A DNA stretch of 32,000 nt from Acaryochloris marina S15 (GTDB lineage: Bacteria > Cyanobacteriota > Cyanobacteriia > Thermosynechococcales > Thermosynechococcaceae), in NCBI RefSeq assembly GCF_018336915.1, contig NZ_CP064923.1:210001-242000 (forward strand), given 5' to 3'. A program made the translations under genes and the position numbers. The notes below the pieces were generated by a model. The model was not told the origin of the DNA, made no database searches, and saw only the letters and a list, made by a program, of their open reading frames with translations. Shown here piece after piece: positions 1-27,322 of the stretch. Position 1 is the first letter of the stretch, and each line of letters starts with the position of its first letter.

Positions 1-422
1 ATCGTCTGAAAATCATTGCTTTATGGACCGCATTTCTTTTAGGGATGCTTTTCCATACCCCATTGGCTTTAATGCCTTTGTTTCACGGTTTGAGTGTTGC
101 CCACTCTCATACCCATGATTATTTACCCCTCAACACCCTCTTTGGGTTGATGTTAGGACTGTTTGGTATTGCCATGGCTGCCATCGTCACTACGGCCTTG
201 GTGAATGGACAAAGATACAAAACGCTACATTTTGGCTTGACCTTGTTATACACCGCCATTAACGGCAGCCATCTGATCTTCGATGTCCTGGTAGGCGTTC
301 CCAGCTATCTGCTTTGCCGGATGGGCTATCTGCTGATTATGGGTCTCCTGCTTAACGTTGTGGCTTTTCAATGGTTTGACTCAGAGTCGAATAAACAACC
401 GGTCTTGAGGTCAGTCCATTGA
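1..422 (+). CDS. Hypothetical integral membrane protein; 5' end probably lies outside the window
   Basis: ORF 45..422. The same frame stays open back to nt 3 (..RLKIIALWTAFLLG before MLFH..). Hydrophobic helices are present (GLMLGLFGIAMAAIVTTALV, GYLLIMGLLLNVVAF). No family recognised. Confidence 0.45.
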   Translation, partial: RLKIIALWTAFLLGMLFHTPLALMPLFHGLSVAHSHTHDYLPLNTLFGLMLGLFGIAMAAIVTTALVNGQRYKTLHFGLTLLYTAINGSHLIFDVLVGVPSYLLCRMGYLLIMGLLLNVVAFQWFDSESNKQPVLRSVH

Positions 423-544
423 CTGTTAAGACCGGTTTTCCTGACCGTTCGATAGACGTCTCCCTGGTGCGATCGCAAAAATTTGCCCATAATTGGAGTG
501 GCGATTCCTTCAGAGATTCAATCGGACCCAACGTCAGGAGGCCG

Positions 545-2827: not shown

Positions 2828-5454
2828 TGATGATTGAGCAAGTCCACCTTCTTCCTGAACAACAGAGCTGGATGACTTCGCTGTTGAATACTTTGCCAGC
2901 GCTGGTGGTGATTTTGGATGCGAAAGGTCGGATTGTCGGCTTCAATCAGGCTTGTGAGCAGGTTTCTGGGTATACCTTTGCTGAGGTGAAAGAGCGATTT
3001 CTTTGGCAGGATTTGCTGTTGCCAGAGGAACGAGCAGGGGTACAAGCCGTTTTTGAACAATTGCTCTCCCATCAAGGCCCCAAACAATATCAAAATCACT
3101 GGCAGACGAAAACAGGAGAGCGCCATTTGATTGCCTGGTCCAATTCAGTGATTCAGCAGGGACAGGCGGTCCAATTTGTGATTGGGACAGGGATTGATAT
3201 TACCGAGCAGCAGCAGTCGGCGTTGGCCTTGCAGCAGCAAATTGAGCATGAGCAGCTTTTGAGTGGGATCGCAGCTCGGATTCGCCAATCTCTAGATCTC
3301 CACACTATCCTCAACACCACCGTTGATGAAGTCCGGCAAGTGTTAGAGACGGATCGCGTTTTGATCTTCCGCCTTGAACGAAATTGGGACGGTATTGTCT
3401 TGGTGGAATCCGTGGATACGGACCAATGGCCTTCCATTCTGGGGGTTAAAATTCACGATCCGTGTTTTCCCGATATCTATAGTGGGGCACCTGAGCAAAT
3501 CCGTGCCAGCGCTGTTGATAATATCTACACCGCTAACCTTTCACCCTGCCATCAAGAGCTACTGAAGGAATTTCAGATTCAAGCCAATTTAGTGGTCCCC
3601 ATTATTTTGGAGAATCGAGTCTGGGGACTGCTGATGGCCCATCATTGTCGTGAACCGCGCCATTGGAAATCTCTAGAGATTAAGTTGCTGAGTCGGCTGG
3701 CGATTCAACTTGCGATCGCAATTCAGCAATCGGAACTGTACTGCCAGCTGCAGGCGGAATTGACCGAACGCGAGCAAGTAGAAGTCGTTCTGCAAGAAGC
3801 CAAACATAATCTAGAACAGCGGGTTGCCGAACGAACAGCAGCCCTACGCCAGGCCAACCAACAATTACGGTCTGAACTGCTGACGCGCCAGCAGGCAGAA
3901 GCTGCCTTACAACATTCTCAAAAACGGATCTCCGGCATTTTGGAAATTGCCGATGACGCCATCATTTCCGTGGATGCCTCGCATATCATCACGCTGTTTA
4001 ATCAAGGGGCAGAGAAAATGTTTGGGTATCGCCGTCAAGATATCCTCGGCCAACCTTTGAATCTCCTATTGCCTGATGATTTGGTGAATTATGCTCAGAC
4101 TCCGACAGACGGCATTTCAACGACAACCTACCAGATGGGGGCACGACGACGTCCGATTACAGCGCAGCGCCGAGATGGCACCTACTTTACGGCAGAGGCC
4201 TCTATCTCTAAACTACAGCTGGGGGATGAACAGGTCTTTACCGCCATTCTGCGAGATATTACAGATCGCTTAGAAGCCCAAGCCTCCCTAACTAAGCTCA
4301 CCCGCCAAAACGAATTAATCCTCAATTCCATGGGTGAAGGACTTTGTGGGGTGGATCTGCAATATCACATCACCTTTGTTAATCCCGCTGCGGCTGACAT
4401 GCTAGGCTATGCGATCCCTGAGCTGATTGGTCAACCCGTAGAGACCATCTTGGGGACGAATCCTCAGCACCTTGATGGGGATCTAGATGCCCTGTATCCC
4501 TTTGAGGATTCGTTGATTTCTGGCACAATCCATCGGTTTATTACCGATGAATTTCAACGATGGGACGGCACGATGTTTCCAGTGGAATATGTGAGTACCC
4601 CCATTCGTGAAAACGACATCATTATGGGGGCAGTGATCACCTTCAAAGATGTGAGTGATCGTCAGGTGGTTGAACGCATGAAGGATGAATTTATTTCCGT
4701 GGTTAGCCATGAACTGCGTACTCCCCTCACCTCGATTCACGGGTCCCTGCGGATGCTCACCAGTGGACTATTAACCGCTCACCCGGACAAGAGTCAACGA
4801 CTCCTCCAAATTGCCGTGGATAGTACGGATCGCCTGGTGCGCCTGATCAATGACATTCTAGATGTAGAACGGATTGAGTCGGGTGAGGTCGGTATGACAA
4901 CATACCCGTATAATATTGCCGATTTAATGACCCAAGCTACCAATACCATGCAGGGCATGGCTGCTCAGATGAAAGTCGAATTGGCGGTGACGCCTTTAGC
5001 CGTATTGACAGATGTGGCTGGCGATCGGATTGTCCAAACCCTCACTAATCTCCTGAGCAACGCCATCAAATTTTCCCGTCCAGGGGGCACCGTTGCCATG
5101 AGTGCACACCTCATGCCCCAACAGCCCCCTAGCTGTTCTTTGACCTCAACCACCACTGAGCTATCTCTTTCCCCGGCAGATGCGCCTCAGGTTTGTATAT
5201 GGGTCCGGGATCAAGGCAGAGGGATTCCTCCAGATAAAATTGACACCATCTTTGAACGGTTTCAACAAGCTGATTCTTCAGATGCTCGTGATCATGAAGG
5301 TACGGGGTTAGGCCTAGCCATTTGCCAAAGTATTGTGCACCAACATGGCGGCCACATTTGGGTAGAAAGTCAACTGGGTAAAGGCAGTACCTTTTCCTTC
5401 ACATTACCCATTCAACGAGACGATATTGCAAACAAAGGTAGACCGGTTACATGA
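2827..5454 (+). CDS. Sensor histidine kinase, PAS-GAF-PAS-PAS-HisKA-HATPase; the GAF is cyanobacteriochrome-like
   Basis: ATG 2827 overlaps the upstream TGA (2825-2827). H-box is FISVVSHELRTPLTSIHG. ATPase boxes are LLSNAIKFS, DQGRGIP and GTGLGLAICQ. Two PAS domains lie after a coiled coil (QAELTEREQVE..). No C-terminal receiver. Confidence 0.9.
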   Translation: MMIEQVHLLPEQQSWMTSLLNTLPALVVILDAKGRIVGFNQACEQVSGYTFAEVKERFLWQDLLLPEERAGVQAVFEQLLSHQGPKQYQNHWQTKTGERHLIAWSNSVIQQGQAVQFVIGTGIDITEQQQSALALQQQIEHEQLLSGIAARIRQSLDLHTILNTTVDEVRQVLETDRVLIFRLERNWDGIVLVESVDTDQWPSILGVKIHDPCFPDIYSGAPEQIRASAVDNIYTANLSPCHQELLKEFQIQANLVVPIILENRVWGLLMAHHCREPRHWKSLEIKLLSRLAIQLAIAIQQSELYCQLQAELTEREQVEVVLQEAKHNLEQRVAERTAALRQANQQLRSELLTRQQAEAALQHSQKRISGILEIADDAIISVDASHIITLFNQGAEKMFGYRRQDILGQPLNLLLPDDLVNYAQTPTDGISTTTYQMGARRRPITAQRRDGTYFTAEASISKLQLGDEQVFTAILRDITDRLEAQASLTKLTRQNELILNSMGEGLCGVDLQYHITFVNPAAADMLGYAIPELIGQPVETILGTNPQHLDGDLDALYPFEDSLISGTIHRFITDEFQRWDGTMFPVEYVSTPIRENDIIMGAVITFKDVSDRQVVERMKDEFISVVSHELRTPLTSIHGSLRMLTSGLLTAHPDKSQRLLQIAVDSTDRLVRLINDILDVERIESGEVGMTTYPYNIADLMTQATNTMQGMAAQMKVELAVTPLAVLTDVAGDRIVQTLTNLLSNAIKFSRPGGTVAMSAHLMPQQPPSCSLTSTTTELSLSPADAPQVCIWVRDQGRGIPPDKIDTIFERFQQADSSDARDHEGTGLGLAICQSIVHQHGGHIWVESQLGKGSTFSFTLPIQRDDIANKGRPVT
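3274..3726 (+). other. GAF domain with DXCF-class cyanobacteriochrome signature (putative bilin-binding photosensor)
   Basis: Sequence is DRVLIFRLERNWDGIVLVESV..IHDPCFPDIY..VDNIYTANLSPCHQELLKEFQIQANLVVPI..VWGLLMAHHC. The DPCF Cys codon is at 3463-3465. The canonical CH Cys codon is at 3547-3549. Confidence 0.6.
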
Positions 5455-5831
5455 CAGCAAAGTGCATCCTCGTAGTGGATAACGAGCTATACATTCAAGA
5501 AGTGGTCCAGATTGCGTTAGAGACCATCAAAAATTGGCGCGTTGTCACCGCCAGTTCAGGTGCTGAAGGTCTGCTGAAGGCGGAGAAAGTCCGTCCCGAT
5601 GCCATTCTTCTGGATATGATGATGCCGGATATGGATGGGGCCACCACCTTTCAGAAACTCCAGGCCAATCCCCTGACTCAAGCCATTCCGGTGCTGTTAC
5701 TGACCGCTAAAATTCAAACAGCGGATCAAAAACGTTATCAGGAGATGGGGGTGCATTCCACCATCGCCAAACCCTTCGATCCTTTACAGCTTCCCGCTCA
5801 GATTGCAGATGTATTAGGCTGGCAGTTATAG
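5451..5831 (+). CDS. Single-domain CheY-like response regulator
   Basis: ATGA start/stop overlap with the kinase at 5451-5454. Motifs are ILVVDNE, ILLDMMMPDMDG, LLLTAK and IAKPF. Confidence 0.9.
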   Translation: MTAKCILVVDNELYIQEVVQIALETIKNWRVVTASSGAEGLLKAEKVRPDAILLDMMMPDMDGATTFQKLQANPLTQAIPVLLLTAKIQTADQKRYQEMGVHSTIAKPFDPLQLPAQIADVLGWQL

Positions 5832-12726: not shown

Positions 12727-12834
12727 TTAATCATAGATTAAATTTTCCTGAATCCTGCCTATGACTGATATGCAACAGGTGAGTTAGGCTATCGTGGACA
12801 GGTTTGCGTGGATGCAGTGCATCCTGGAAAGGTT

Positions 12835-13353
12835 ATGAGTTTTGTGATGGTCGATGTGGAGTCTGATGGCTCTATTCCTGGTGACTATTCGATGGTTTGT
12901 TTTGGGGCCATTATTGTAGAGCCGACGTTGTCAAAGACGTTTTATGGGCAGTTAAAGCCAATTTCTGAGCAGTGGGTTCCAGAAGCGTTAGCAGTCAGTG
13001 GTTTCAGTCGAGAAGATACCCTTGGATTTGAGGAGCCGACGACTGTGATGCAGGGGTTTGCAGACTGGATTGCAGCCAATAGTAAGGGTCGTCCGTTCTT
13101 TATCTCTGACAACAATGGGTTCGACTGGCAATTTATCAATTGGTACTTCCACCATTTCATGGGCAGTAATCCGTTTGGCCATACGTCTGCCAATCTCGGC
13201 TCTTTGTACAAGGGACTGGTAAAGGACACGTTTACGAATTTCAAGCATTTACGGAAAACTGCCCATACTCACCACCCTGTGGATGATGCACGGGGTAATG
13301 CAGAAGCGCTATTAATGATGAAGGAACAGGGCTTGAGCATTAGCCTGAAGTAA
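12835..13353 (+). CDS. DEDDh (DnaQ-like) 3'-5' exonuclease
   Basis: Exo I is VMVDVESDG, Exo II is FISDNNGFDWQF, Exo III is HHPVDDARGNA. ATG 12835 is preferred over GTG 12808. Confidence 0.75.
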   Translation: MSFVMVDVESDGSIPGDYSMVCFGAIIVEPTLSKTFYGQLKPISEQWVPEALAVSGFSREDTLGFEEPTTVMQGFADWIAANSKGRPFFISDNNGFDWQFINWYFHHFMGSNPFGHTSANLGSLYKGLVKDTFTNFKHLRKTAHTHHPVDDARGNAEALLMMKEQGLSISLK

Positions 13354-14858: not shown

Positions 14859-16739
14859 ATGATGTCTGCACAAGATTTAATCCATACCCTAGAACAAACA
14901 ACCCAGAAACGACTCAAGCAAATCTCTGTTGAAGACTTGAGTAAAAGTCTGGATGACATCTATAACCATTTGCAGATTCAGCCCAATGCTTATGCCCTGA
15001 ATGATGAAAATCAAATCGTTGGACTGAGTTTGCAAGGGGTGGATGGCCATGAATTATTGGCAGCATCAATCGAGCAATTTCACCATCTCTCCGCCTTGTA
15101 TTTATTCGATATTGTCTCGCCAGAAATCATCCCATTTGCCAGTCTTCAAAGACTCTCAGCCATTGCGCTGTCGGGACAAGATGTGAAGACTGCCTCCTAT
15201 CTCCAACAAGCAGAGAATCTCAAAACGGTTTATTTGAATGCCACCCATATTTCTGATTACTCCTGCTTGTCGGACCTCAAGAACCTGACCCACCTCGACT
15301 TAAGCAACAATCTGATTGCTGATATTTCCTTTATCCAGGACCTCAAGCAACTCACCTACCTGGGATTAGGGTCTAACAAAATTGTTGATATTTCAGCACT
15401 CAAACACCTGACGAAACTGGTCAGCCTAAATTTACGCTCTAATGCAACAGCGGATTATTCAGTGTTGCGAGATCTCCAAGACCTCACCCATCTAGCAATT
15501 AGCGTTAGCGAGGAAATGGGGATTTCCTTCCTACAAAATCTTAAAGGCCTCACCCATCTGGATCTCAGCTACAACCACTGGATTTCGGATATTTCTGTGT
15601 TACGAGATCTGCAAGGACTCGCCCACCTGGATTTAGGGTCTAACCAGATTTCTGATATTGCAGTTTTGCAAGATCTACAGCAACTCACCTATCTGTCTTT
15701 AAGTTGCAATCAGCTTGCAGATATTTCAGTATTACCAACCCTCCAAGGACTTGAAAGTCTGGATGTCAGTGCTAACGAGATTGCTGATATTGCAATTCTG
15801 CAAAACCTCACAGGGTTGACCCATCTGGATATCAGCTCCAATGAAGTGTCTGATATTTCAGCTTTGCAGGATCTCACGACGCTCACTCATCTGAACATCA
15901 GTTCAAACGAGATGATTGATTATGCAGTGTTACAAGGTCTGACAGAACTTACTAGCCTAGATATCAGTGACAATCAGATGGCTGAGATCTCAGACTTACA
16001 GGGACTCCAAGCACTGACCAGTCTGAACTTAAGCTATAACCAGCTGTCTGATATTTCAGTCCTAAAGGATTTCAAGCAACTGGCTAATCTGAATTTAAGC
16101 TACAACCCCCTATCAGATATTGCGGCTCTGCAAAACTGCATGAACCTCACCACCCTAAATTTAAGTTTCACCCAAATTACCGACCTTTCCACCCTGCCAG
16201 ATCTGAAGAGTCTAACCAGTTTAGATTTACATAGCAATCAGATTACGGATATCTCAGCGTTGCAAGACCTTGAGGGCCTATATAGGCTGAATGTCAGTGA
16301 CAATAAGCTGTCTGACATTTCAGCTATCAAGAGACTCACGGGACTCTTCAGCCTGAATTTAAGTATTAACCAGCTTTCTGATATTTCAGTTCTGCACGAT
16401 CTAACAAGACTGACCAGTTTGAATGTCAGTCATAATCAGCTGTCTGATATTTCAGTTTTGCAGGGACTTACAAGACTGTTCAGTCTAGATTTAGGGGCCA
16501 ATCAGGTTGCTGATATCTCAGCCCTGCAAAATATTCCAGGTCTCTTTAGTCTAGATTTGCGATTTTCTGATGTGTCCGTGTTTCAGGACTTCAAAGGACT
16601 CACCAGCCTAAATTTAAGTTCTAATCAGATTTCAAGCGTTCCTGAATGGTTGAGTGAGCAAGGCCTTCCTATTCAAACAGAGGATGAAGAGGCCTTATTC
16701 TGCATTAACTTATGTGATAATCCCATCCCACCTGTGTAG
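14859..16739 (+). CDS. Leucine-rich repeat protein (about 21 tandem 22-residue LRRs); no signal peptide and no other domain
   Basis: Repeats follow the form LxxLTxLxLSxNQIsDISxLQx, for example LQGLAHLDLGSNQISDIAVLQD and LTRLTSLNVSHNQLSDISVLQG. Confidence 0.9.
   Translation: MMSAQDLIHTLEQTTQKRLKQISVEDLSKSLDDIYNHLQIQPNAYALNDENQIVGLSLQGVDGHELLAASIEQFHHLSALYLFDIVSPEIIPFASLQRLSAIALSGQDVKTASYLQQAENLKTVYLNATHISDYSCLSDLKNLTHLDLSNNLIADISFIQDLKQLTYLGLGSNKIVDISALKHLTKLVSLNLRSNATADYSVLRDLQDLTHLAISVSEEMGISFLQNLKGLTHLDLSYNHWISDISVLRDLQGLAHLDLGSNQISDIAVLQDLQQLTYLSLSCNQLADISVLPTLQGLESLDVSANEIADIAILQNLTGLTHLDISSNEVSDISALQDLTTLTHLNISSNEMIDYAVLQGLTELTSLDISDNQMAEISDLQGLQALTSLNLSYNQLSDISVLKDFKQLANLNLSYNPLSDIAALQNCMNLTTLNLSFTQITDLSTLPDLKSLTSLDLHSNQITDISALQDLEGLYRLNVSDNKLSDISAIKRLTGLFSLNLSINQLSDISVLHDLTRLTSLNVSHNQLSDISVLQGLTRLFSLDLGANQVADISALQNIPGLFSLDLRFSDVSVFQDFKGLTSLNLSSNQISSVPEWLSEQGLPIQTEDEEALFCINLCDNPIPPV
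15276..16650 (+). repeat. Intragenic tandem 66-bp periodicity encoding the LRR units
   Basis: DNA strings such as ctcacccatctggat and tctgatatttcagt recur at 66-nt intervals, in frame with the LRR CDS. Confidence 0.8.
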
Positions 16740-16831: not shown

Positions 16832-19800
16832 TCATTCGGAACACTGCCGTTGCGAGGGCAGCAGATTAGCAGTGGTTGTGAGATAGCTGGAGAGGTGACG
16901 ACACCCCTTCTCTAATAAAACGTCCAGATCGATATTTGCCTTCTGGAGTGTCGCTCCTGTGCCCACCCATATTTGCTTATCCTTTACATTGACCCGCGTC
17001 ACAGGACCCAACCTATCCAGCGTCTTGAGCAACGTTCCCTGATCTACCTGCCAAACCTTAACCGACTGATCCGGACTGCCTGAGATTAAAATTGGCTGAT
17101 TGGGAAGAAATGCTAGACTCATCACCCCATTTTGATGGCCCGTCAAGGTTTGTACTAACGTCTTGTCTTGCCATAGCTTGATCGTATTGTCCCAACTAGC
17201 AGACGCTAAAATATCACCTGCAGAATTGAACTGGACTTGAGCGATCGCCAAGCCATGGCCCGTCAACGTTTTGACTGGAGTGCCGTCCAGCTGCCACAGC
17301 TTCACCGTCTCGTCATCACTACCCGACGCTAGATAGCGAGGTCCAAAATCAACACTCGTCACGGGGCCATCGTGGGCCTGAATCGTTTTGACGGTTTTTC
17401 CCGTTGCCGCATCCCATAGGCGAATGGTTTGGTCATCACTGCCCGATACTAGGGTTTTGCCATTCGGACTGAAATCGAGACTATTGATTTTGCCCCTATG
17501 GCCGGAGAGAGTGCGTTGCACCGTCCCCTCATGGATATCCCACACCCTAATCGCTTTGTCATGTCCTGATACCAGCTGTTGGCTATCGGCACTAAACCGG
17601 AGGGCATAAACGGGCTTTAGATCGCCGTTGAAGCTTTTGAACGGTAGCTTACCCACTTGTGGATCGGACCGCCAGAGCTGAATCTTGCCGTCTAGACTGG
17701 CTATCGCTAAGGTCTGTTGGTCTGGACTAACGGCCATTGCCAGGATGATTGATACAGCCTCAAAAATAGAGGGTGTGGCCCAAACTCGGACCTGTTTATC
17801 AACACTGGCAGAGACTAAAGTTTTGCCATTGGGATGAAAGGCAGCATCTAGGGTTGCAGCACCATGCCCTTGCAGCACTGACAAGGGCTTACCTGTTTCC
17901 ACTTGCCAAAGTCGGAGACTGTGATCGGCATGGGTCGAGACTAAGGTGTTGCCATCCGGGCTAAAGGCCACGCTAGTTACAACAACATTCTCTGTTTGAA
18001 ACGTACGCAGTCGCTTGCCTGTTAGGGTCCATAACTGAATTGTGCCGTCTTCTGTAGAAGAGGCGATGGTCTGACCATCTGAACTAATGGCGATATCGGT
18101 GACTGCAGTGGTCTGTTGAGGCAATGTGCGGAGCGTTTGCCCCTGCGCCACATCCCAAATCCGTACAGTTTTATCTTCACTGGCAGACACGAGGATATTG
18201 CCAGTGGGATTAAAGGCAACGGCATTGACCCAACCCTGATGCCCAGACAAGGTTTTCACTGGCTTGCCTGTACTGGCCTCCCAGAGCTTAATCACGGATT
18301 CTCGGCCTGCGGTCGCCAGCTGGTTGCCTTGGGGATGGAAGGCTAAGCCTGTTCCATGAGACGCGGCAGTAAAGCTGGCAAGCTGTTTCCCTGTTTTGGG
18401 AGACCAGCGTTGCACCGTTCCCTGAGTAGTGATCACTGCAATGGATTGATCGTCAGGACTAAAAGCAACATCATTGACTTTCTCGCCAATTTCCAGAGTA
18501 TGGAGTCGCTTGCCATTCGCCTGCCAAATCCTCACAGTTTGATCATCACTGCCCGATGCAATCCACTGCCCCGATGAGCTAATGCTAACGGAAGTGACTC
18601 GTTGGGTATGGCCTTCCAGGCGATTTCTTTCTTGGGTTTTTGCGATCGCATCTCCTAACGTCAGGGCGGTTTGGGTGCGTATCGCTCCTAAGGTATTGCC
18701 ATCAATACCCCAACCCCAAAGGCCTTGGAACTGTCTTGCAGCTTGGGTACTGGTGAGAAGCGCTTCGAGTTGCTGATGCGATCGCAACTGGGATTCCGAC
18801 AAGGCATTTAAGGCCCGAATCTCACTCAGCTGGGTTTGCTGACGCTGAAGAAAAGCCATGCCCGCCAGTCCCGTCGCTGCTGCTCCCAGCAAGCTAATAA
18901 CGCCCACTGCAACCTGCGCCTGTCTCAGCTGCTGTTTGGCCTGTTTCTGTTCCTGCTCTTGGGCCGATAAACCTGCTTGAACAAAGGCTTGTACTTCCGC
19001 CGATAGCTCGTCTGTGTACTTCACATACAGCTCTGCTGCCGCATCCAGTCGCACTCCTCGCAACAGGAAATCTGGTGACTGCTGACTCTGCTGCCAATTT
19101 TCAGCAGCTTGCTCAATTTGACGCTGCGTTTGTAGCCGAACCCGGTTTTCTTCTAGCCACCAGCGCAAGGTGGACCAATGGCGAATCAAAATTTCATGGA
19201 CCACTTCCACAGTCACATCCTGCTTGATCCATTCCAGCCAATCCTCGGGTTCAGAGGGTTCGGATGCATCATTGCCTTTACTGCTTAAGGTCTGGGCTGG
19301 AGAAAGATCCTGCTCCAAACTAACAATCACTAATTTGGCATCCGTCAGCGTCTTGAGCGTTCGCTCTACTAATTCAGCCGGATATTTAGGCACGACTAAA
19401 TCAGACTTCTTGATTCGGCGGCGGGTATCTTCCGTTCCATCTCCCAATTGAGTCAAAGCCAGGAAAATCCACTGGGCACAGGCTTGACCCTCCGCATCAA
19501 AACCATCGTAAATGTCTTGGGCTTTCCGTTCTAAAGCGCCTTTTAGGCCACCGATTTGCTGTTGATAAATGGCCAGGGTCAAGGCACCAGGCTGCCGCTG
19601 TTCCCAAAGCTGTTCTAGGACAAACTCCAGCAGCGGTAAATCACCCGCTAGATTGCTGAGTTCTTCCAGCAATACCGCTACGAGTTCCGGGTCCACCGCT
19701 AGTCCCACCTGCTCCGCTGGATTCAGAATGACGTGGCGATAACTGCCCGTCGTCAGGGCAGGAGGCACCAGAATATTCGACTCAGGCAACCGCTGAGCTA

Positions 19801-21958
19801 AGACTGGATATTCCAGACAAGGCGCAATAAAATCGCTGCGCAGGGTGATGATCAGCTTGAAGCGATCACCTGCATGATCTATAGCTCCAAAAATTAGGTC
19901 CAAGAATTGCTGACGATCTTCAGGAGCCGCGAGGGTAAATAATTCCTCGAACTGATCGATAACCAGGACGATGGTGGATTGAGGTTGCGATCGCAACCAG
20001 TAGACAAACCCTTCAGTGCCCTGATAGAGCATCCCTTCCAGCTGCAGCCGCTGATACTGCTGTTCTTTGGCGGTCCCACTTTCGATTAACCGTTCCACTA
20101 ATACTTGTACTGGTTTGGCCCCTGGCCGCAAGCTCCGCATCCACCATTGGTCGCTGCCAGGAATATGCTGTCCCTGCTGGAGTTGGGCCATCAACCCCGC
20201 CTGCACCACTGAGGATTTACCGCTCCCCGAAGCTCCCACAACAGCCAGAAAAGACTGCTCTCGCACCGCCTCAATCAGTTGCTGAATTAAGACATCTCGC
20301 CCAAAGAAAAATGGTGCATCATCGGTTCCAAAGGCTCGCAGGCCCATATAGGGACAAATCCCTAAATCAAAATCGGATGTGGTGCTGCGCGCCCCCATGC
20401 CGCCAGGCAAAACCTCAATTACTCCTTGCACCCCCGATAGCCAGGTATGCAACTGCATGTCACTCCCCGCTAGTTGAATCTGCAACTGGGCGATCCAGCT
20501 TGCAACTGGCATCCCGTCCTGGGGATTGGCCTGGGTCAGCGTCTGGTTCAACTTCTCTGCAAACTGGTCTGGCTGATCTGCTGGAGCCGCTGCGGCTAAC
20601 AAACATTGCCCCTGGTAATGAGTCTGCAGATCTTCAATCCAATCCAGAAGATCTGTAGCTCCTGGACAATCCAAAATCACGACTTGTTGGGCTAGAGGCG
20701 AACGTTTGAGCATCTGCCGCAACCAAGATCGACTGATTGCTACCCCTTCTGGCAAGACCAGATTGGCTTCGCCCGTTTCCGTTTGCTCCGTTTTGCCGCG
20801 CAAGTAGAGGAGTGCGGTCGTTACCGTAGTCGGAGCAACAGCCTGAGCCTCTGCCACCTGTAGACAGCTCTGAATCGCCTCTCGTACCTCCTGCCATGTT
20901 TGTTCGGCTTTGGGGAAATAGGTGAGCTCAAAGGCTCCTGTACCTCGTAATACTTTTCCTAACGCCAAAGCCGTGGGATTATCCGCTAATCCCGCCACCA
21001 TTAGGGCCTGTCGAGGATAGGCATGGACGGGCAACTCTGGCTGCAGGCCCAACACCAATTCCCCTACCCCTTCCACAATCCGCTTCGGTGTTTGTTGGGG
21101 ATATTCGGCATCGAGCTGGGTTTCACCTCGCCCTCGCTTTTGCTGATTAATCAGGCGGAGCTGCTGATTAACCTTATCGATATAGCGCAGGGTTTGGTAG
21201 TAGACGTACTTGTAGAGGGTATCGGCTTCAATCACTCCGTCGTCATCTGCAGCTTCTCCTAACAGTCCCTGAATCAGGTAATAGGTAAACACCCCATGTT
21301 CTAGCTCTGGGAACTCCCAAGACTGTTGGTTTTGATCGCAAGACAGCAGGGCATAAAACCCCTTGCTCTGGGCCGCCCGCTGCCGCAGCAGAGCCATCAA
21401 TTGGGGGGTAGGATTGGGCAATATTTCTGGGGTTTCATCTTTACTCCCCAACCGCATACTCATACCGCCGCTATGGCAAGCATCCAGCCATACCAATTGC
21501 TGATGAGCTGCGCTATCCGCCAAGGTGGCCAGCAGTTCCTGCACAGGAAGCCCCGTCTGCAGTAGCTGTTCTTTTTGGGTATTGGCTAGGCATAAAAAGG
21601 TCTGCTGCGTCGGCTGATCAACGACGCCATGTCCTGAGAAATAAACAAGAATGGTGTCTTGAGGTTTGGCCTGATCGATAATCTGCTGCAGACTGGTGCG
21701 AACGCTCGCTAAGTCTGGTGATGAGTTGCTTGGTGCTTGCGGATGATCGTGATGCAAGACAATGGATTTTTGCGGAAATGCCTCAGTCGCAGTCGCAAGG
21801 GCATCTCCCAACCCCTGGCAATCTAAAGCCGGATAGGCCAGATTTGACAGTTGTGCATCAGCATAATGATTGACCCCCACCAACACGACCCATAGCTTGG
21901 TTTCTCCCGATTCTAAAGCTCGGGTGGATCGACTCGTGTTAACACTAACTGGTGACAT
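16832..21958 (-). CDS. Caspase (peptidase C14 orthocaspase), caspase-like domain, STAND P-loop NTPase, hydrophobic segment, WD40 x about 13-14 (NLR-like)
   Basis: Caspase motifs are YFSGHG (His codon 21629-21631) and WLDACHSGG (Cys codon 21476-21478). The NTPase has CPYMGLRAFGTDDAPFFFGRD, Walker A GASGSGKS (20213-20236) and Walker B VLVIDQFEE. The hydrophobic segment VAVGVISLLGAAATGLAGMAFL is at 18848-18913. WD repeats end in TVRIWQ, VIKLWE, TVRIWD, TIQLWT, SLRLWQ, QVRVWA, KIQLWR, AIRVWD, TIRLWD, TVKLWQ, TIKLWQ, SVKVWQ and similar. Confidence 0.9.
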   Translation of the reverse strand: MSPVSVNTSRSTRALESGETKLWVVLVGVNHYADAQLSNLAYPALDCQGLGDALATATEAFPQKSIVLHHDHPQAPSNSSPDLASVRTSLQQIIDQAKPQDTILVYFSGHGVVDQPTQQTFLCLANTQKEQLLQTGLPVQELLATLADSAAHQQLVWLDACHSGGMSMRLGSKDETPEILPNPTPQLMALLRQRAAQSKGFYALLSCDQNQQSWEFPELEHGVFTYYLIQGLLGEAADDDGVIEADTLYKYVYYQTLRYIDKVNQQLRLINQQKRGRGETQLDAEYPQQTPKRIVEGVGELVLGLQPELPVHAYPRQALMVAGLADNPTALALGKVLRGTGAFELTYFPKAEQTWQEVREAIQSCLQVAEAQAVAPTTVTTALLYLRGKTEQTETGEANLVLPEGVAISRSWLRQMLKRSPLAQQVVILDCPGATDLLDWIEDLQTHYQGQCLLAAAAPADQPDQFAEKLNQTLTQANPQDGMPVASWIAQLQIQLAGSDMQLHTWLSGVQGVIEVLPGGMGARSTTSDFDLGICPYMGLRAFGTDDAPFFFGRDVLIQQLIEAVREQSFLAVVGASGSGKSSVVQAGLMAQLQQGQHIPGSDQWWMRSLRPGAKPVQVLVERLIESGTAKEQQYQRLQLEGMLYQGTEGFVYWLRSQPQSTIVLVIDQFEELFTLAAPEDRQQFLDLIFGAIDHAGDRFKLIITLRSDFIAPCLEYPVLAQRLPESNILVPPALTTGSYRHVILNPAEQVGLAVDPELVAVLLEELSNLAGDLPLLEFVLEQLWEQRQPGALTLAIYQQQIGGLKGALERKAQDIYDGFDAEGQACAQWIFLALTQLGDGTEDTRRRIKKSDLVVPKYPAELVERTLKTLTDAKLVIVSLEQDLSPAQTLSSKGNDASEPSEPEDWLEWIKQDVTVEVVHEILIRHWSTLRWWLEENRVRLQTQRQIEQAAENWQQSQQSPDFLLRGVRLDAAAELYVKYTDELSAEVQAFVQAGLSAQEQEQKQAKQQLRQAQVAVGVISLLGAAATGLAGMAFLQRQQTQLSEIRALNALSESQLRSHQQLEALLTSTQAARQFQGLWGWGIDGNTLGAIRTQTALTLGDAIAKTQERNRLEGHTQRVTSVSISSSGQWIASGSDDQTVRIWQANGKRLHTLEIGEKVNDVAFSPDDQSIAVITTQGTVQRWSPKTGKQLASFTAASHGTGLAFHPQGNQLATAGRESVIKLWEASTGKPVKTLSGHQGWVNAVAFNPTGNILVSASEDKTVRIWDVAQGQTLRTLPQQTTAVTDIAISSDGQTIASSTEDGTIQLWTLTGKRLRTFQTENVVVTSVAFSPDGNTLVSTHADHSLRLWQVETGKPLSVLQGHGAATLDAAFHPNGKTLVSASVDKQVRVWATPSIFEAVSIILAMAVSPDQQTLAIASLDGKIQLWRSDPQVGKLPFKSFNGDLKPVYALRFSADSQQLVSGHDKAIRVWDIHEGTVQRTLSGHRGKINSLDFSPNGKTLVSGSDDQTIRLWDAATGKTVKTIQAHDGPVTSVDFGPRYLASGSDDETVKLWQLDGTPVKTLTGHGLAIAQVQFNSAGDILASASWDNTIKLWQDKTLVQTLTGHQNGVMSLAFLPNQPILISGSPDQSVKVWQVDQGTLLKTLDRLGPVTRVNVKDKQIWVGTGATLQKANIDLDVLLEKGCRHLSSYLTTTANLLPSQRQCSE

Positions 21959-22337: not shown

Positions 22338-23243
22338 ATGAGCTTACAAGGGAAGAGATGGTTGTCTGGCATTGCAGTAGGCAGCATTCTCAGTGGGCTG
22401 TTCATTCAACCTGTCTTAGCAGGAACGAATTTAACCAGTGCCAAAGTCTATGACTTTGACTCCCAAGTGCAACTAGAGCCAGTTAAGCAAAAGTCTCGTC
22501 TTGCCAAAATCGGTGACGTGATGGTGCCGATGGATATTCTCAAAACGGGGTCTAGTGCTTGGGCCAAGCTGCTGTTTAATGAAGGCACCTTATTTAGGAT
22601 TCATGCCAACGCCAAGTTCTTTTTTGTCCCGAATACTCGGAGCTTTCAGCTCAAGCATGGATTAGTCTTATCGATGATTCAGCCGGGACAGGGAATCACG
22701 ACGGTGATTACGCCGACGGCCAAAATCGTGGCTTTTGGCACAGCCCTAACGGTTCGCCATGATTCCACTAAAAATACAACGATCGTTAGTGCTCTAACGG
22801 AGAAACCCGGTCGGCCTATCTTTGTCTCCAACGATAATGGCGCAGGACAAATTCGGCTGAAAGCCGGCGAACAAGTCGAAATTAAAGATAATGTGGTGGG
22901 TCCTGTCCAATCCTTTAGTCTGCCAGCCTTCTATCAGGCCTGTCCGATGAGTAGGGTATTAGCCCCTGAGCAAGAACAGCTAGTCGCCCTAGAACCGACG
23001 GAAGTGCAAACTCCCTTATTAGTTATTCGGGAGGAAACAGCGGAAGCTGTGGCAAGCCAATCTGTCACCCCTGCCTCCTCATCTACTGAACTGACTAAAC
23101 TGTGCGCACCGGTTGCAGAATTACCGGAAGAGAAAAAACAGCGACCTAACAGTGGCCCTAGGATTGGCATTGGCGGTTGTATTCCTTTCCTCACCTGCGG
23201 AACAGGCAGACCCAATCCCCGCGTCCCTGGACAACGACCCTAA
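22338..23243 (+). CDS. Secreted FecR-domain protein
   Basis: GAGGA RBS at 22327-22331. Signal peptide is GIAVGSILSGLFIQPVLAG. FecR-like core is IGDVMVPMDILKTGSSAWAKLLFNEGTLFRIHANAKFFF. The C-terminal tail is Cys/Gly/Pro-rich (GIGGCIPFLTCGTGRPNPRVPGQRP). Confidence 0.65.
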   Translation: MSLQGKRWLSGIAVGSILSGLFIQPVLAGTNLTSAKVYDFDSQVQLEPVKQKSRLAKIGDVMVPMDILKTGSSAWAKLLFNEGTLFRIHANAKFFFVPNTRSFQLKHGLVLSMIQPGQGITTVITPTAKIVAFGTALTVRHDSTKNTTIVSALTEKPGRPIFVSNDNGAGQIRLKAGEQVEIKDNVVGPVQSFSLPAFYQACPMSRVLAPEQEQLVALEPTEVQTPLLVIREETAEAVASQSVTPASSSTELTKLCAPVAELPEEKKQRPNSGPRIGIGGCIPFLTCGTGRPNPRVPGQRP

Positions 23244-26302: not shown

Positions 26303-27322
26303 GTGACCAATATAGCCAATCCACTGCAAACATCAGACCAGCCGATTCCCGTTGGTGTGTTAGGGTTTGGCGGGCTCGGACAGGCCGCAGCTAGGGTTTT
26401 AGCGCCCAAACAGCAAATGAAGCTGGTCGCGGCTGCAGACCAAAAAGGCTTTGCCCTCAATCCCGAAGGCTTGGATTTGCAAAGTGCGATCGCAACCTAT
26501 CAAACCCAAGGATCTCTCGGTTACCTCGATCCGGGTGGCACCCTCAGTACCCAAAGCATTGCCGATCTGATTCAGCAAAGTCAGAACGTTGCCGGTTTTT
26601 TCCTGGCTCTGCCGAACTTACCCAATACCTTTATGGCCTCGGTAGCTAAACAGTTTATTGACCTAGGTTGGAAAGGTGTTTTAATCGATGCCATCAAGCG
26701 AACCAGCGCTGTGGAGCAGCTCGTTGACCTCCGGGCCGAATTAGCCAACGCGGGCATTACCTATGTCACAGGCTGTGGCGCGACCCCCGGTTTACTCACC
26801 GCTGCCGCTGCCCTAGCCGCCCAAAGCTATGCGGAAATCCATCAAGTCAAAATCACCTTTGGGGTCGGTATTGCCAACTGGGAAGCCTATCGGGCTACCA
26901 TTCGCGAAGACATTGGCCATTTACCGGGTTATACCGTCGAAACGGCTAAAGCCATGACCGATGCTGAGGTGGAGACTCTGTTGGAGACAACCAACGGCAT
27001 CCTCAGCTTGGAAAATATGGAACATGCCGATGACATCATCCTAGAAATGGCTGGGATTTGTGGTCGCGATCGCGTCACTGTTGGTGGTGTCGTCGATACC
27101 CGCAACCCCAAGAAACCCCTCAGCACGAACGTACAGCTGACCGGCCGGACTTTTGAAGGCAAAATCTCTACCCATACCTTTACCCTAGGGGATGAAACTA
27201 GCATGGCTGCTAATGTTTGTGGCCCTGCCTTTGGTTATCTCAAAGCCGGAATTGCACTCCACCAACAAGGGATGTGTGGTCTTCTCACTTCCGCTCAGGT
27301 CATGCCACATTTTGTGTCTTAA
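26303..27322 (+). CDS. NAD(P)-binding Rossmann-fold oxidoreductase (saccharopine dehydrogenase-like)
   Basis: GxGxxG is present at [15 protein letters not shown] near the N-terminus, and [17 protein letters not shown] later. GTG start at 26303. The function assignment is tentative. Confidence 0.5.

What the first reader, a model, noticed from the sequence alone, without database searches (positions are those of the whole stretch)
16832..21958. 1708-aa caspase-STAND NTPase-WD40 protein: an NLR/apoptosome-like death or immunity machine with an intact protease dyad
This single ORF combines several parts:
- A C14 caspase-fold domain with both catalytic residues (SGHG His110, DACHSG Cys161).
- A second caspase-like domain.
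- A STAND-type P-loop NTPase with the CPYxGLxxFxxxDAxFFFGR N-terminal motif, Walker A GASGSGKS and Walker B VLVIDQFEE.
- A winged-helix/helical region, a coiled coil and a hydrophobic segment.
- About 13-14 WD40 repeats, enough for two beta-propellers.

This effector-switch-sensor logic matches Apaf-1/NLR proteins and bacterial Avs/NACHT antiphage systems. Caspase- and WD40-linked STAND NTPases have been catalogued computationally in multicellular bacteria. As far as I know, the trigger, the substrates and the physiological role (phage defence, programmed cell death or stress) of this cyanobacterial architecture have not been established experimentally.
Basis: partly seen in the sequence, partly recalled or inferred. 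Interest (0 to 1): 0.85.

Follow-up and report, generated by a model that had tools for sequence, protein, structure and literature searches.

The report
Membrane-spanning caspase–STAND–WD40 receptor protein
This Acaryochloris gene encodes a 1708-residue protein, already catalogued but never tested, that fuses a caspase-type protease and an NLR-like ATP switch to a predicted membrane-spanning helix, so its two WD40 propellers probably face outside the cytoplasm rather than sensing inside the cell.

Summary
There is one intact 1708-aa ORF (16832-21958, minus strand). It has a C14 caspase with His110/Cys161, a second caspase-like domain, an nSTAND1 NTPase (Pfam E 1e-118) and 14 WD40 blades.

It is not new as an object. 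The exact protein is NCBI WP_212664075.1 (Acaryochloris marina). The p20–AAA_16–TM–WD40 architecture is among the commonest catalogued cyanobacterial orthocaspase architectures, and a 2020 review predicted its WD40 to be extracellular. No experiments were found.

What I add:
- The second domain is a duplicated pseudo-caspase lacking the catalytic His.
- The "hydrophobic segment" is a transmembrane helix present in 183/183 orthologues. Its positive-inside bias is strong. The post-TM part is 4-fold depleted in Cys and carries an almost invariant terminal Cys pair. This predicts caspase and NTPase in the cytoplasm and WD40 outside.
- The gene has collinear orthologues across cyanobacterial orders, under purifying selection (dN/dS 0.05-0.18), outside defence islands and without an EACC1 partner.
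- WD40 blade surfaces are not conserved between genera.
- The caspase–pseudo-caspase unit is a portable output module.

The Apaf-1/Avs analogy therefore holds for the switch-effector logic, but probably not for cytosolic sensing.

The parts
16832..21958 (-). Whole ORF, 1708 aa plus stop. It is identical to NCBI WP_212664075.1 / QUY42928.1.
21131..21901 (-). Active caspase/orthocaspase domain, aa 20-276 (p20 plus a p10-like part). His110 is the codon at 21629-21631 and Cys161 the codon at 21476-21478. Asp46 and Ser206-Cys207-Asp208 are metacaspase-like S1 pocket candidates.
   Evidence: Pfam C14. NCBIfam NF047832 scores 140.5 bits against a cutoff of 140. AlphaFold model. Foldseek hits MALT1 and metacaspases at 1e-8. 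Alignment to metacaspase-9/-4. Residue invariance.
21059..21175 (-). Most conserved stretch of the protein, aa 262-300, about 80% identity between genera. It comprises the end of a long helix and an exposed basic linker (KRGRGE...TPKRIVEG). It is a candidate autoprocessing or pseudo-substrate site; this is an inference.
   Evidence: Conservation profile. Low pLDDT over 277-315. R268 and R293 are in 116/116 sequences, K292 in 115/116 and R277 in 114/116.
20408..21013 (-). Duplicated pseudo-caspase domain, aa 316-517. The His position is replaced (Y385-L-R387-G388-K/R389). The motif ILD430-C431-P432 stands in place of LDAC161H.
   Evidence: AlphaFold pLDDT 85-94. hhalign gives 86-88% probability, E 3e-6 to 5e-6. 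Residue counts. No Pfam or PDB sequence hit.
19073..20356 (-). nSTAND1 NTPase module, aa 535-962. It contains the CPYxGL...FFGR N-terminal motif, Walker A at aa 575-582 (20213-20236), Walker B at aa 664-672 (19943-19969), sensor-1-like Arg707, the G772-x-L774-P775-L776 motif, a helical domain and a winged helix.
   Evidence: Pfam E 4e-120 over the full model. Model pLDDT 85.6. Foldseek top hit is CED-4 at 5e-6, followed by archaeal ATPases, ORC/Cdc6 and EfAvs5. Residue invariance.
18782..19000 (-). One continuous predicted helix, aa 987-1059: a juxtamembrane coiled segment, the TM segment and a post-TM helix.
   Evidence: model residues 463-535
18848..18913 (-). Predicted transmembrane helix, aa 1016-1037, rich in Gly and Ala. 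It has a basic N-terminal flank.
   Evidence: Kyte-Doolittle hydropathy is about 2.0 over 19 aa. The segment is present at the same place in 183/183 unique orthologues. The N flank averages 5.3 K+R against 2.0 for the C flank, and 98% of sequences have more K+R on the N side.
17780..18628 (-). WD40 blades 1-7, aa 1111-1393 (first propeller).
16943..17779 (-). WD40 blades 8-14, aa 1394-1672 (second propeller; blade 14 is degenerate).
16835..16942 (-). C-terminal tail, aa 1673-1708, with the conserved pair Cys1686 and Cys1706. This is a candidate disulfide.
   Evidence: Both Cys are present in 115/116 sequences. 181/183 orthologues have exactly two Cys in the last 45 aa, with a modal spacing of 21.

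Best explanation
The gene encodes a single-pass, membrane-anchored STAND 'receptor-caspase'.

Shown by computation:
- An N-terminal active metacaspase-like domain is followed by a duplicated, His-less pseudo-caspase domain.
- Next come an nSTAND1 NTPase with all nucleotide-binding residues intact, one long helix containing a conserved TM segment, 14 WD40 blades and a C-terminal Cys pair.

Inferred topology: the caspase, pseudo-caspase and NTPase lie in the cytoplasm. The double propeller and its disulfide-stapled tail lie outside it, in the periplasm or the thylakoid lumen.

Inferred mechanism:
1. A ligand binds the extracytoplasmic propellers.
2. The signal passes through the continuous TM and juxtamembrane helix.
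3. Autoinhibition of nSTAND1 is released, and the NTPase oligomerises on the inner face of the membrane in an NTP-dependent way.
4. Crowding activates the caspase. The pseudo-caspase serves as a built-in partner or regulator. The highly conserved basic linker (aa 262-300) and Arg169 are likely autoprocessing or pseudo-substrate sites.
5. The caspase then cleaves substrates encoded elsewhere in the genome, probably after Arg or Lys.

The outcome (cell death, growth arrest or stress signalling) and the ligand are unknown. I favour a conserved envelope- or population-level stress or death signal over a classical phage-protein sensor.
For: - Domains and motifs.
- Invariance of His110, Cys161, Lys581, Asp668, Glu671/672 and Arg707 in 116/116 sequences.
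- Caspase fold.
- Pseudo-caspase duplication.
- STAND fold, with CED-4 the top hit.
- TM helix in 183/183 orthologues at a fixed offset.
- Charge bias: N flank net +4.2 against C flank net +0.7.
- Cys density is 1.30 per 100 aa before the TM and 0.33 after it. 147/183 orthologues have exactly two post-TM Cys. The post-TM Cys count is even in 84% of sequences, against 53% for the pre-TM part.
- Sister architectures keep the same TM position but replace WD40 with a roughly 250-aa domain that has exactly four Cys.
- TMHMM-based prediction of extracellular WD40 for the same architecture in PMC7475262.
- Asp46 and Ser-Cys-Asp 206-208 align with metacaspase S1 and p10 motifs.
- Purifying selection acts on all domains, so the gene is functional.
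Against: - No experimental topology exists. The hydropathy and charge rules are heuristics, and I had no dedicated TM predictor.
- The Cys depletion could partly reflect WD40 composition, and I had no cytoplasmic WD40 control set. The orthologues are also phylogenetically non-independent.
- Exporting about 670 aa after a 1015-aa cytoplasmic part is unusual.
- The orientation between the caspase and the pseudo-caspase is uncertain (pTM 0.53).
- The S1 pocket inference rests on weak alignments (E about 1e-3) and on pocket residues I recalled from memory. The one characterised EACC1-type caspase was modelled as cutting after Asp (PMC12642450).
- No substrate gene is linked to the locus.
Confidence: 0.5

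Rival explanations
1. One reading: a fully cytosolic Apaf-1/Avs-like sensor. The WD40 propellers bind an intracellular trigger such as a phage protein. The hydrophobic helix is only a peripheral tether or an oligomerisation helix. Activation leads to abortive-infection cell death.
For: - The protein has a STAND fold and an effector-switch-repeat architecture.
- Bacterial caspase-STAND proteins do act in antiphage defence: KrAvs12 with EACC1 (PMC12642450).
- Apaf-1-like WD40 STANDs with N-terminal caspases are reported in cyanobacteria (PMC13581612).
- WD40 blade surfaces are not conserved between genera, and blades homogenise within genes, as in diversifying immune sensors.
Against: - The 21-aa hydrophobic helix is conserved and has a strong positive-inside asymmetry.
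- The C-terminal part is depleted in Cys and keeps a conserved Cys pair.
- The ectodomain is swapped behind a fixed TM in sister architectures.
- PADLOC gives no Avs or NACHT hit.
- The neighbours are housekeeping genes.
- The family shows long-term orthology, old paralogue lineages and purifying selection.
Confidence: 0.2
2. The topology is as in the best explanation, but the role is specifically antiphage or anti-invader surveillance of the cell envelope. Examples would be sensing phage adsorption or injection proteins, or lysis products of neighbouring cells. The caspase would activate an unlinked pore-forming or other death effector, such as an EACC1-type protein.
For: - The caspase scores as the 'EACC1-associated type', just above the curated cutoff (140.5 against 140).
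- nSTAND1 occurs in EACC1 conflict systems (PMC8195603).
- A third of EACC1-system caspase proteins carry TM helices (PMC7159879).
- 'Transmembrane STAND ATPases' are listed among protease-linked defence sensors (PMC12642450).
- The sensor surfaces vary.
Against: - No EACC1-like ORF lies upstream here or in 81 orthologous loci.
- There is no defence-island context.
- Average dN/dS in the WD40 region is only 0.13-0.18.
- The family looks vertically inherited, not patchy.
Confidence: 0.25
3. The ORF is a decaying or non-functional relic, a large multidomain gene on its way to becoming a pseudogene.
For: In Acaryochloris sp. 'Moss Beach' the gene is annotated as two ORFs, split by a frameshift in the aa 521-534 linker.
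Against: - The reading frame here is intact over 5.1 kb.
- dN/dS is 0.05-0.18 in every domain.
- Catalytic residues are invariant in 116 sequences.
- Full-length collinear orthologues were found: 438 related loci in species-representative genomes, of which the best 80 are all full-length.
- The 'Moss Beach' halves are otherwise intact, so the split is either a sequencing error or a very recent fission at a domain boundary.
Confidence: 0.02

Closest known systems
Catalogued cyanobacterial orthocaspases with a p20–AAA_16–TM–WD40 architecture (for example Ava_0039, Ava_3079, Glo7428_1095; Bhattacharjee & Mishra 2020, PMC7475262; PMC8283722)
   Same: The domain order is the same, the His-Cys dyad is intact, there is a single TM between the ATPase and the WD40 region, and an extracellular WD40 was predicted. 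WD40 and AAA_16 are the most frequent accessory domains of cyanobacterial orthocaspases. The present protein is a member of this group; a Gloeocapsa PCC 7428 orthologue is P0044.
   Different: Those surveys do not report the second (pseudo-caspase) domain, the nSTAND1 assignment, the C-terminal Cys pair, the orthology and selection pattern, or the ectodomain swapping. None of these proteins has been studied experimentally.
KrAvs12 with EACC1, a caspase-STAND antiphage system from Ktedonobacter (Evans et al. 2025 preprint, PMC12642450), and the EACC1–caspase two-gene system of Kaur et al. 2020 (PMC7159879)
   Same: An N-terminal caspase is fused to a STAND NTPase with a C-terminal sensor. The caspase here passes the NCBIfam 'EACC1-associated type' model. 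Both are membrane-associated systems.
   Different: No adjacent EACC1 gene exists here. The sensor is WD40 behind a TM helix, not a cytosolic sensor of a phage tail connector protein. There is an extra pseudo-caspase domain. The context is not defence-related.
Apaf-1 / CED-4 apoptosome (AP-ATPase STANDs)
   Same: CED-4 is the best structural match of the NTPase module. Both have a double WD40 propeller sensor and a caspase output activated by induced proximity.
   Different: The NTPase clade differs: nSTAND1, with no NB-ARC hit. The caspase is fused directly instead of being recruited through CARD. The propellers are 7+7 blades; from memory, Apaf-1 has 7+8. A predicted TM places the sensor outside the cytoplasm.
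Metacaspases and the MALT1 paracaspase (clan CD, family C14)
   Same: The fold and the catalytic motifs match. The metacaspase-like Asp46 and the S-C-D p10 motif suggest a basic P1 preference.
   Different: Sequence similarity is very low (E about 1e-3 by profile). The domain is embedded in a 1708-aa receptor-like protein and is followed by a duplicated inactive copy.
Active/inactive caspase-fold pairs such as caspase-8 with cFLIP(L), and separase with its pseudo-protease domain (from general knowledge; not tested here)
   Same: An inactive caspase-fold domain sits next to an active one and is likely to regulate it.
   Different: Here both domains are in one bacterial polypeptide and arose by internal duplication. 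No interface could be established (pTM 0.53).

Membership tests
Caspase/metacaspase family C14 (orthocaspase) | Pfam PF00656 match above the gathering score | tested here: met
   58.6 bits against 21.4, aa 23-237
Caspase/metacaspase family C14 (orthocaspase) | Catalytic His-Cys dyad in SGHG and D-x-C-H-S-G contexts | tested here: met
   His110 and Cys161 are present and invariant in 116/116 sequences
Caspase/metacaspase family C14 (orthocaspase) | Caspase-hemoglobinase alpha/beta fold | tested here: met
   AlphaFold model. Foldseek hits MALT1, AtMC9, TbMCA2 and GSU0716 at E 1e-8 to 1e-6.
Caspase/metacaspase family C14 (orthocaspase) | Acidic S1 pocket giving Arg/Lys specificity | tested here: inconclusive
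   Invariant Asp46 aligns with the metacaspase-9 C-x-x-D Asp, and S206-C207-D208 resembles the metacaspase SGCxD motif. The alignments are weak, and the identity of the pocket residues is from memory.
Caspase/metacaspase family C14 (orthocaspase) | Proteolytic activity | not testable with these tools
   This needs biochemistry.
STAND NTPase, nSTAND1 clade (PF20703) | Full-length match to the nSTAND1 model | tested here: met
   E 4e-120, model positions 1-378 of 379
STAND NTPase, nSTAND1 clade (PF20703) | Walker A Lys, Walker B acidic residues, sensor-1 Arg and a GxP-like motif of the helical domain | tested here: met
   K581, D668, E671, E672 and R707 are in 116/116 sequences. In the G772-x-L774-P775-L776 motif, L774 and P775 are in 116/116, G772 in 107/116 and L776 in 112/116.
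STAND NTPase, nSTAND1 clade (PF20703) | NBD, helical domain and winged-helix arrangement similar to solved STANDs | tested here: met
   Model pLDDT 85.6. CED-4 is the top hit at 5e-6 and EfAvs5 is also hit. AAA+ ORC and RFC proteins score similarly, and the TM-scores are low at 0.3-0.5.
STAND NTPase, nSTAND1 clade (PF20703) | NTP-dependent oligomerisation on ligand binding | not testable with these tools
   This needs biochemistry or cryo-EM.
Apaf-1-type apoptosome (AP-ATPase) | NB-ARC (AP-ATPase) nucleotide-binding domain | tested here: not met
   No NB-ARC hit at E<=1. nSTAND1 is the only hit above its cutoff. NACHT (24.0 against 26.7) and AAA_16 (29.0 against 32.6) fall below their cutoffs.
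Apaf-1-type apoptosome (AP-ATPase) | CARD or death-fold adaptor that recruits a separate caspase | tested here: not met
   No such domain was found. The caspase is fused directly.
Apaf-1-type apoptosome (AP-ATPase) | Cytosolic WD40 sensor | tested here: not met
   A conserved TM helix with N-in/C-out signatures precedes the WD40 region. This is a prediction only.
EACC1–caspase two-gene conflict system (Kaur et al. 2020) | Caspase of the EACC1-associated type | tested here: met
   NF047832 scores 140.5 bits against a cutoff of 140, a borderline pass.
EACC1–caspase two-gene conflict system (Kaur et al. 2020) | EACC1 gene immediately 5' of the caspase gene | tested here: not met
   The 380-bp upstream gap holds no conserved ORF. 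No conserved small upstream ORF occurs in 81 orthologous loci either. An unlinked EACC1 elsewhere in the genome could not be tested.
Avs / bNACHT antiphage STAND systems | Match to curated defence-system models | tested here: not met
   PADLOC gives only a generic 'caspase' hit, a WD40-driven HEAT-ARM_XIII hit and weak P-loop hits.
Avs / bNACHT antiphage STAND systems | Defence-island genomic context | tested here: not met
   The neighbours are pst transport genes, BioU, a beta-lactamase-like gene, an LRR gene and a FecR-domain gene. One DEDDh exonuclease 3.5 kb away hits a PADLOC effector model.
Avs / bNACHT antiphage STAND systems | Phage-protein-triggered defence phenotype | not testable with these tools
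   This needs phage challenge or co-expression assays.

The most novel reading that the evidence does not exclude
This family would be an outside-in STAND receptor: an NLR-like NTPase switch that reads a signal on the far side of a membrane through an extracytoplasmic, disulfide-stapled double WD40 propeller. It would transmit that signal through one TM helix to a cytoplasmic caspase/pseudo-caspase pair. The family has been conserved across cyanobacterial orders, and the sensor head is exchangeable (WD40 or a four-Cys domain). If so, it would be a bacterial counterpart of 'extrinsic' death-receptor signalling, not of the cytosolic apoptosome. It would probably link envelope or population cues, such as lysis of neighbours, phage attack at the surface or lumenal stress, to regulated proteolysis.
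Probability: 0.35. Interest if true: 0.75.

Novelty: new member of a known kind. Interest (0 to 1): 0.45.

Why it matters
Every STAND/NLR switch characterised so far, in the literature I could search, senses ligands in the cytoplasm. A family in which the sensor sits across a membrane from the NTPase and the caspase would extend that paradigm. It would also give cyanobacterial 'programmed cell death' research a concrete, widely conserved and genetically tractable candidate.

The specific predictions made here turn a catalogue entry into testable hypotheses:
- N-in/C-out topology.
- A Cys1686-Cys1706 disulfide.
- A His-less pseudo-caspase acting as a regulator.
- Basic-residue autoprocessing sites.
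- No linked substrate gene.

As an observation, though, the gene is already annotated and its architecture has been described repeatedly since the early comparative-genomics papers. The surprise for a specialist is therefore moderate.

Tried and rejected
- Conserved operon partner. Clustering of all flanking ORFs of 81 orthologous loci found nothing tightly linked. The best family was a sigma70_r4 gene with a DUF1822 gene in 21 and 16 loci, 1-8 kb away. The LRR neighbour is specific to Acaryochloris (3/81 loci).
- Adjacent EACC1. No conserved small ORF lies upstream, and no EACC1 or defence family appears among the neighbours.
- Solved-structure homologues by sequence. None was found for aa 1-1115 or for the pseudo-caspase profile. 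Only weak metacaspase hits came up for the caspase profile.
- Gross positive selection on WD40. It was not seen: dN/dS is 0.13-0.18 within Acaryochloris. Within-genus variability is low and spread over the repeat register.
- Pseudogene hypothesis. Rejected.
- RNA genes, tRNAs, promoters and terminators around the gene. Nothing informative.
- Domain interface between the caspase and the pseudo-caspase.
- The internal TM helix as an embedded EACC1-like element (small-residue patch). No family hit on aa 940-1115 at E<=1, so this remains speculation.
Full report
OBSERVATION. The window contains one uninterrupted ORF at 16832..21958 on the minus strand, 1708 aa with an ATG start. Pfam gives three matches. 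Peptidase_C14 covers aa 23-237 at 58.6 bits. nSTAND1 (PF20703) covers aa 536-962 at E 1e-118 over the whole model. WD40 scores E 2e-121. By sequence there are 13 clear WD40 blades and one degenerate blade, aa 1111-1672, enough for two 7-bladed propellers. NCBIfam places the protease in 'caspase, EACC1-associated type' at 140.5 bits against a cutoff of 140. The exact protein is already public as WP_212664075.1 / QUY42928.1, 'caspase family protein [Acaryochloris marina]'. UniRef calls it 'nSTAND1 domain-containing NTPase'. It sits on a 5.88-Mb contig.

THE UNANNOTATED PARTS. The region aa 300-535 has no Pfam hit, and its profile finds nothing in PDB sequences. AlphaFold2, run on a 55-sequence alignment, predicts a confident alpha/beta domain at aa 316-517 (pLDDT about 85-94). 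Its strand and helix order mirrors the caspase domain. Two independent profile-profile comparisons align it to the caspase core at 86% and 88% probability, E 5e-6 and 3e-6. DTILVYFSGHG pairs with TTALLYLRGK, and QQLVWLDAC with QQVVILD-C. Lys or Arg occupies the His position (K/R389), while Y385, R387, G388, D430, C431 and P432 are nearly invariant. The whole N-terminal model matches MALT1 paracaspase, Arabidopsis metacaspase-9, TbMCA2 and Geobacter GSU0716 (E 1e-8 to 1e-6).

The most conserved stretch of the entire protein, about 80% identity between genera, is aa 181-300. It comprises the p10-like half and an exposed basic linker (KRGRGE...TPKRIVEG) between the two caspase-fold domains. A caspase-domain profile aligns weakly to metacaspases. 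In that alignment, invariant Asp46 falls on the metacaspase C-x-x-D Asp, and S206-C207-D208-x-x-Q-x-S-x-E resembles the metacaspase SGCxDxQTSxD motif. I read this as a probable Arg/Lys P1 preference. This is an inference, because the pocket residues come from my memory of metacaspase structures.

THE NTPase AND THE HELIX. The model of aa 525-1115 (pLDDT 85.6) shows a P-loop core, a helical domain and a winged helix. It then shows a single continuous helix spanning protein residues 987-1059. CED-4 is the best PDB match at 5e-6. The archaeal ATPases PAB2304 and SSO1545, ORC/Cdc6/RFC proteins and EfAvs5 follow. Only nSTAND1 passes its Pfam cutoff. NACHT and AAA_16 fall below theirs, and NB-ARC is absent. 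K581, D668, E671, E672 and R707 are invariant in 116 sequences. In the G-x-L-P-L motif at 772-776, L774 and P775 are also invariant, while G772 (107/116) and L776 (112/116) are nearly so.

TOPOLOGY. Its Kyte-Doolittle hydropathy is about 2.0 over 19 residues. Its sequence varies, but it stays rich in Gly and Ala. The 15-residue N-terminal flank averages 5.3 Lys+Arg (net +4.2). The C-terminal flank averages 2.0 (net +0.7). In 98% of sequences the N side has more Lys+Arg. Cys density is 1.30 per 100 aa before the helix and 0.33 after it. 147 of 183 orthologues have exactly two Cys in the roughly 670 post-TM residues. 181 of 183 have exactly two in the last 45 residues, with a modal spacing of 21. 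The post-TM Cys count is even in 84% of sequences, against 53% for the pre-TM part. Cys1686 and Cys1706 are each conserved in 115 of 116 sequences. Together these features predict an N-in/C-out protein. The caspase, pseudo-caspase and NTPase would be cytoplasmic, and the propellers and a disulfide-stapled tail would be extracytoplasmic. The caveats are heuristic rules, related sequences and no cytoplasmic WD40 control set. A 2020 review reached the same topology with TMHMM for proteins of this architecture, such as Ava_0039, Ava_3079 and Glo7428_1095 (PMC7475262).

DISTRIBUTION AND EVOLUTION. A search with aa 1-1115 found 955 homologues. The top 120 are almost all proteins of 1600-1850 aa from cyanobacteria, 55-68% identical outside Acaryochloris. 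They come from Gloeocapsa, Gloeocapsopsis, Nodularia, Nostoc, Anabaena, Coleofasciculus, Phormidesmis and others. A scan of one genome per species found 438 related loci, and the best 80 are all full-length and collinear. A 116-sequence alignment is almost gap-free over all 1708 residues. Nostocales carry two old paralogue lineages: about 78-80% identity within a lineage and about 66% between them.

Within Acaryochloris, dN/dS is 0.05-0.09 for the caspase, pseudo-caspase, NTPase and TM regions, and 0.13-0.18 for WD40. The gene is therefore maintained by selection. One strain ('Moss Beach') has a frameshift in the disordered linker at aa 521-534 that splits effector from switch and sensor, with both halves otherwise intact.

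The WD40 region evolves differently from the rest. Identity between orthologous blades (0.39) barely exceeds identity between non-orthologous blades (0.35). 35 of 116 orthologues have blade pairs at 70% identity or more, and 11 at 80% or more, up to 95%. Variability between genera is concentrated at the non-scaffold repeat positions. So the scaffold and the blade number are fixed, while the blade surfaces turn over.

CONTEXT. The neighbours are a pstSCAB-like transporter, a DEDDh exonuclease, an unknown 369-aa protein, a convergent LRR protein, a divergent FecR-domain protein, a beta-lactamase-like protein and BioU. PADLOC hits only the exonuclease. Across genera the context is not conserved. 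No small conserved ORF lies upstream here or in 81 orthologous loci, so the defining 5' EACC1 gene of the EACC1-caspase system is missing. No tRNA genes were found, no Rfam families, and no informative promoter or terminator signals.

THE EFFECTOR IS A PORTABLE MODULE. A phmmer search with aa 256-534 (linker plus pseudo-caspase) against 1.84 billion representative proteins returned only 102 clusters. The match is always at about residues 250-540, just behind an N-terminal caspase. Besides the present architecture there are three others:
- Proteins with the same nSTAND1 and a TM at the same place, but with a roughly 250-aa non-WD40 C-terminal domain containing exactly four Cys.
- Proteins with three 'IGPIA' helical repeats and no STAND or TM.
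- One protein with a GUN4-like domain.
A sensor head exchanged behind a fixed TM fits the receptor reading.

LITERATURE. nSTAND1 was defined by Kaur et al. 2021 and is noted to occur in EACC1 systems (PMC8195603). Kaur et al. 2020 describe the EACC1-caspase system, with a third of its caspase proteins carrying TM helices (PMC7159879). Evans et al. 2025 show that a caspase-STAND (KrAvs12) cleaves EACC1 into a pore former, and they mention 'transmembrane STAND ATPases' (PMC12642450). A 2026 Nature paper reports Apaf-1-like WD40 STANDs with N-terminal caspases in cyanobacteria (PMC13581612). Orthocaspase surveys list WD40 and AAA_16 as the commonest accessory domains (PMC8283722). I found no experimental study of this family and no description of its tandem pseudo-caspase.

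MECHANISM (best estimate, confidence about 0.5). This is a single-pass STAND receptor-caspase.
1. A ligand binds the extracytoplasmic double propeller.
2. The continuous TM and juxtamembrane helix transmits the change.
3. nSTAND1 exchanges or binds nucleotide and oligomerises at the inner membrane face.
4. The caspase is activated by proximity. The pseudo-caspase acts as an intramolecular partner or regulator. The conserved basic linker and Arg169 (R in 89/116 sequences) are candidate processing sites.
5. Unlinked substrates are then cleaved.
The domain anatomy, the conservation and the predicted topology are computed results. Signal direction, oligomerisation, specificity, substrates and outcome are inferred.

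RIVALS. The rivals are a cytosolic Apaf-1/Avs-like sensor (0.2), an envelope-surveillance antiphage role with an unlinked death effector (0.25; this is compatible with the topology model) and a decaying gene (0.02).

VERDICT. The gene is a member of an already catalogued but uncharacterised family. Its interest lies in the testable idea of an outside-in STAND receptor with a built-in caspase/pseudo-caspase pair.

Noticed in passing
Proteins P0223 and P0224 (Acaryochloris sp. 'Moss Beach'); equivalent to window aa ~521-534, nt ~20357-20398: In this related strain the gene is split into a 530-aa caspase/pseudo-caspase protein and a 1192-aa nSTAND1-TM-WD40 protein. The cause is a frameshift in the disordered inter-domain linker, and both halves are otherwise intact. 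This is either a sequencing error or a natural fission of effector from switch and sensor.
   Followed up: partly
window 14859-16739 (+): A 626-aa internalin-like LRR protein with no obvious signal peptide lies convergent with the caspase gene, 92 bp from it. It is a neighbour in Acaryochloris only (3 of 81 orthologous loci).
   Followed up: partly
window 22338-23243 (+); L001 3971-9715: A divergent FecR-domain protein with a signal-peptide-like N-terminus lies 380 bp upstream. In A. marina NIES-2412, three extra genes (neutral ceramidase, PhoD, Mpo1-like) sit between it and the caspase gene, so this junction is an indel hotspot between strains.
   Followed up: no
window 12808-13353 (+): A DEDDh-type exonuclease matches the PADLOC model PDLC00753 'Effector Exonuclease' at E 1e-37. 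It is the only defence-library hit among the neighbours.
   Followed up: no
L003 1-1541, and equivalent positions in about 20 other loci (for example L024, L027, L028, L030, L036): A sigma70_r4 sigma-factor gene and a DUF1822 gene lie within 1-8 kb of the orthologue in 21 and 16 of 81 loci, from several cyanobacterial orders. This may be plain synteny. It is worth noting because other caspase-like systems signal by releasing sigma factors.
   Followed up: partly
L020, L029, L038, L044, L045, L046, L048, L050, L062: 47-160 bp downstream of the orthologue. L004: same family, 2.2 kb downstream.: A roughly 165-aa MsrB/SelR gene with an export-signal-like N-terminus lies downstream on the same strand in 11 loci. 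In ten of them it is immediately downstream.
   Followed up: no
Proteins P0124, P0137, P0139, P0140, P0151 (C-terminal ~250 aa): Sister architectures replace WD40 with a four-Cys domain carrying the motif PCxTLxxIxxLW...RCGWYG. The motif is reminiscent of GUN4, but no Pfam hit was found at 1e-5.
   Followed up: partly
L065 (contig JAAUUT010000002.1): A full-length orthologue lies on a 108-kb contig binned as 'Candidatus Gracilibacteria'. This is most likely a mis-binned cyanobacterial contig.
   Followed up: no
window 17722-17778, aa 1394-1412 (WD40 blade 8): An Acaryochloris-specific hydrophobic stretch (IFEAVSIILAMAV, Kyte-Doolittle 1.76) lies inside the first blade of the second propeller. 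I take it to be a buried beta-strand, not a second TM.
   Followed up: no
window 419-5831 (+) and 26303-27322 (+): A signalling cluster: a triple-receiver/OmpR/Hpt/GGDEF protein, a PAS-GAF histidine kinase and a single-domain response regulator. Separately, a BioU-type (S)-8-amino-7-oxononanoate synthase (636.9 bits against a cutoff of 600).
   Followed up: no
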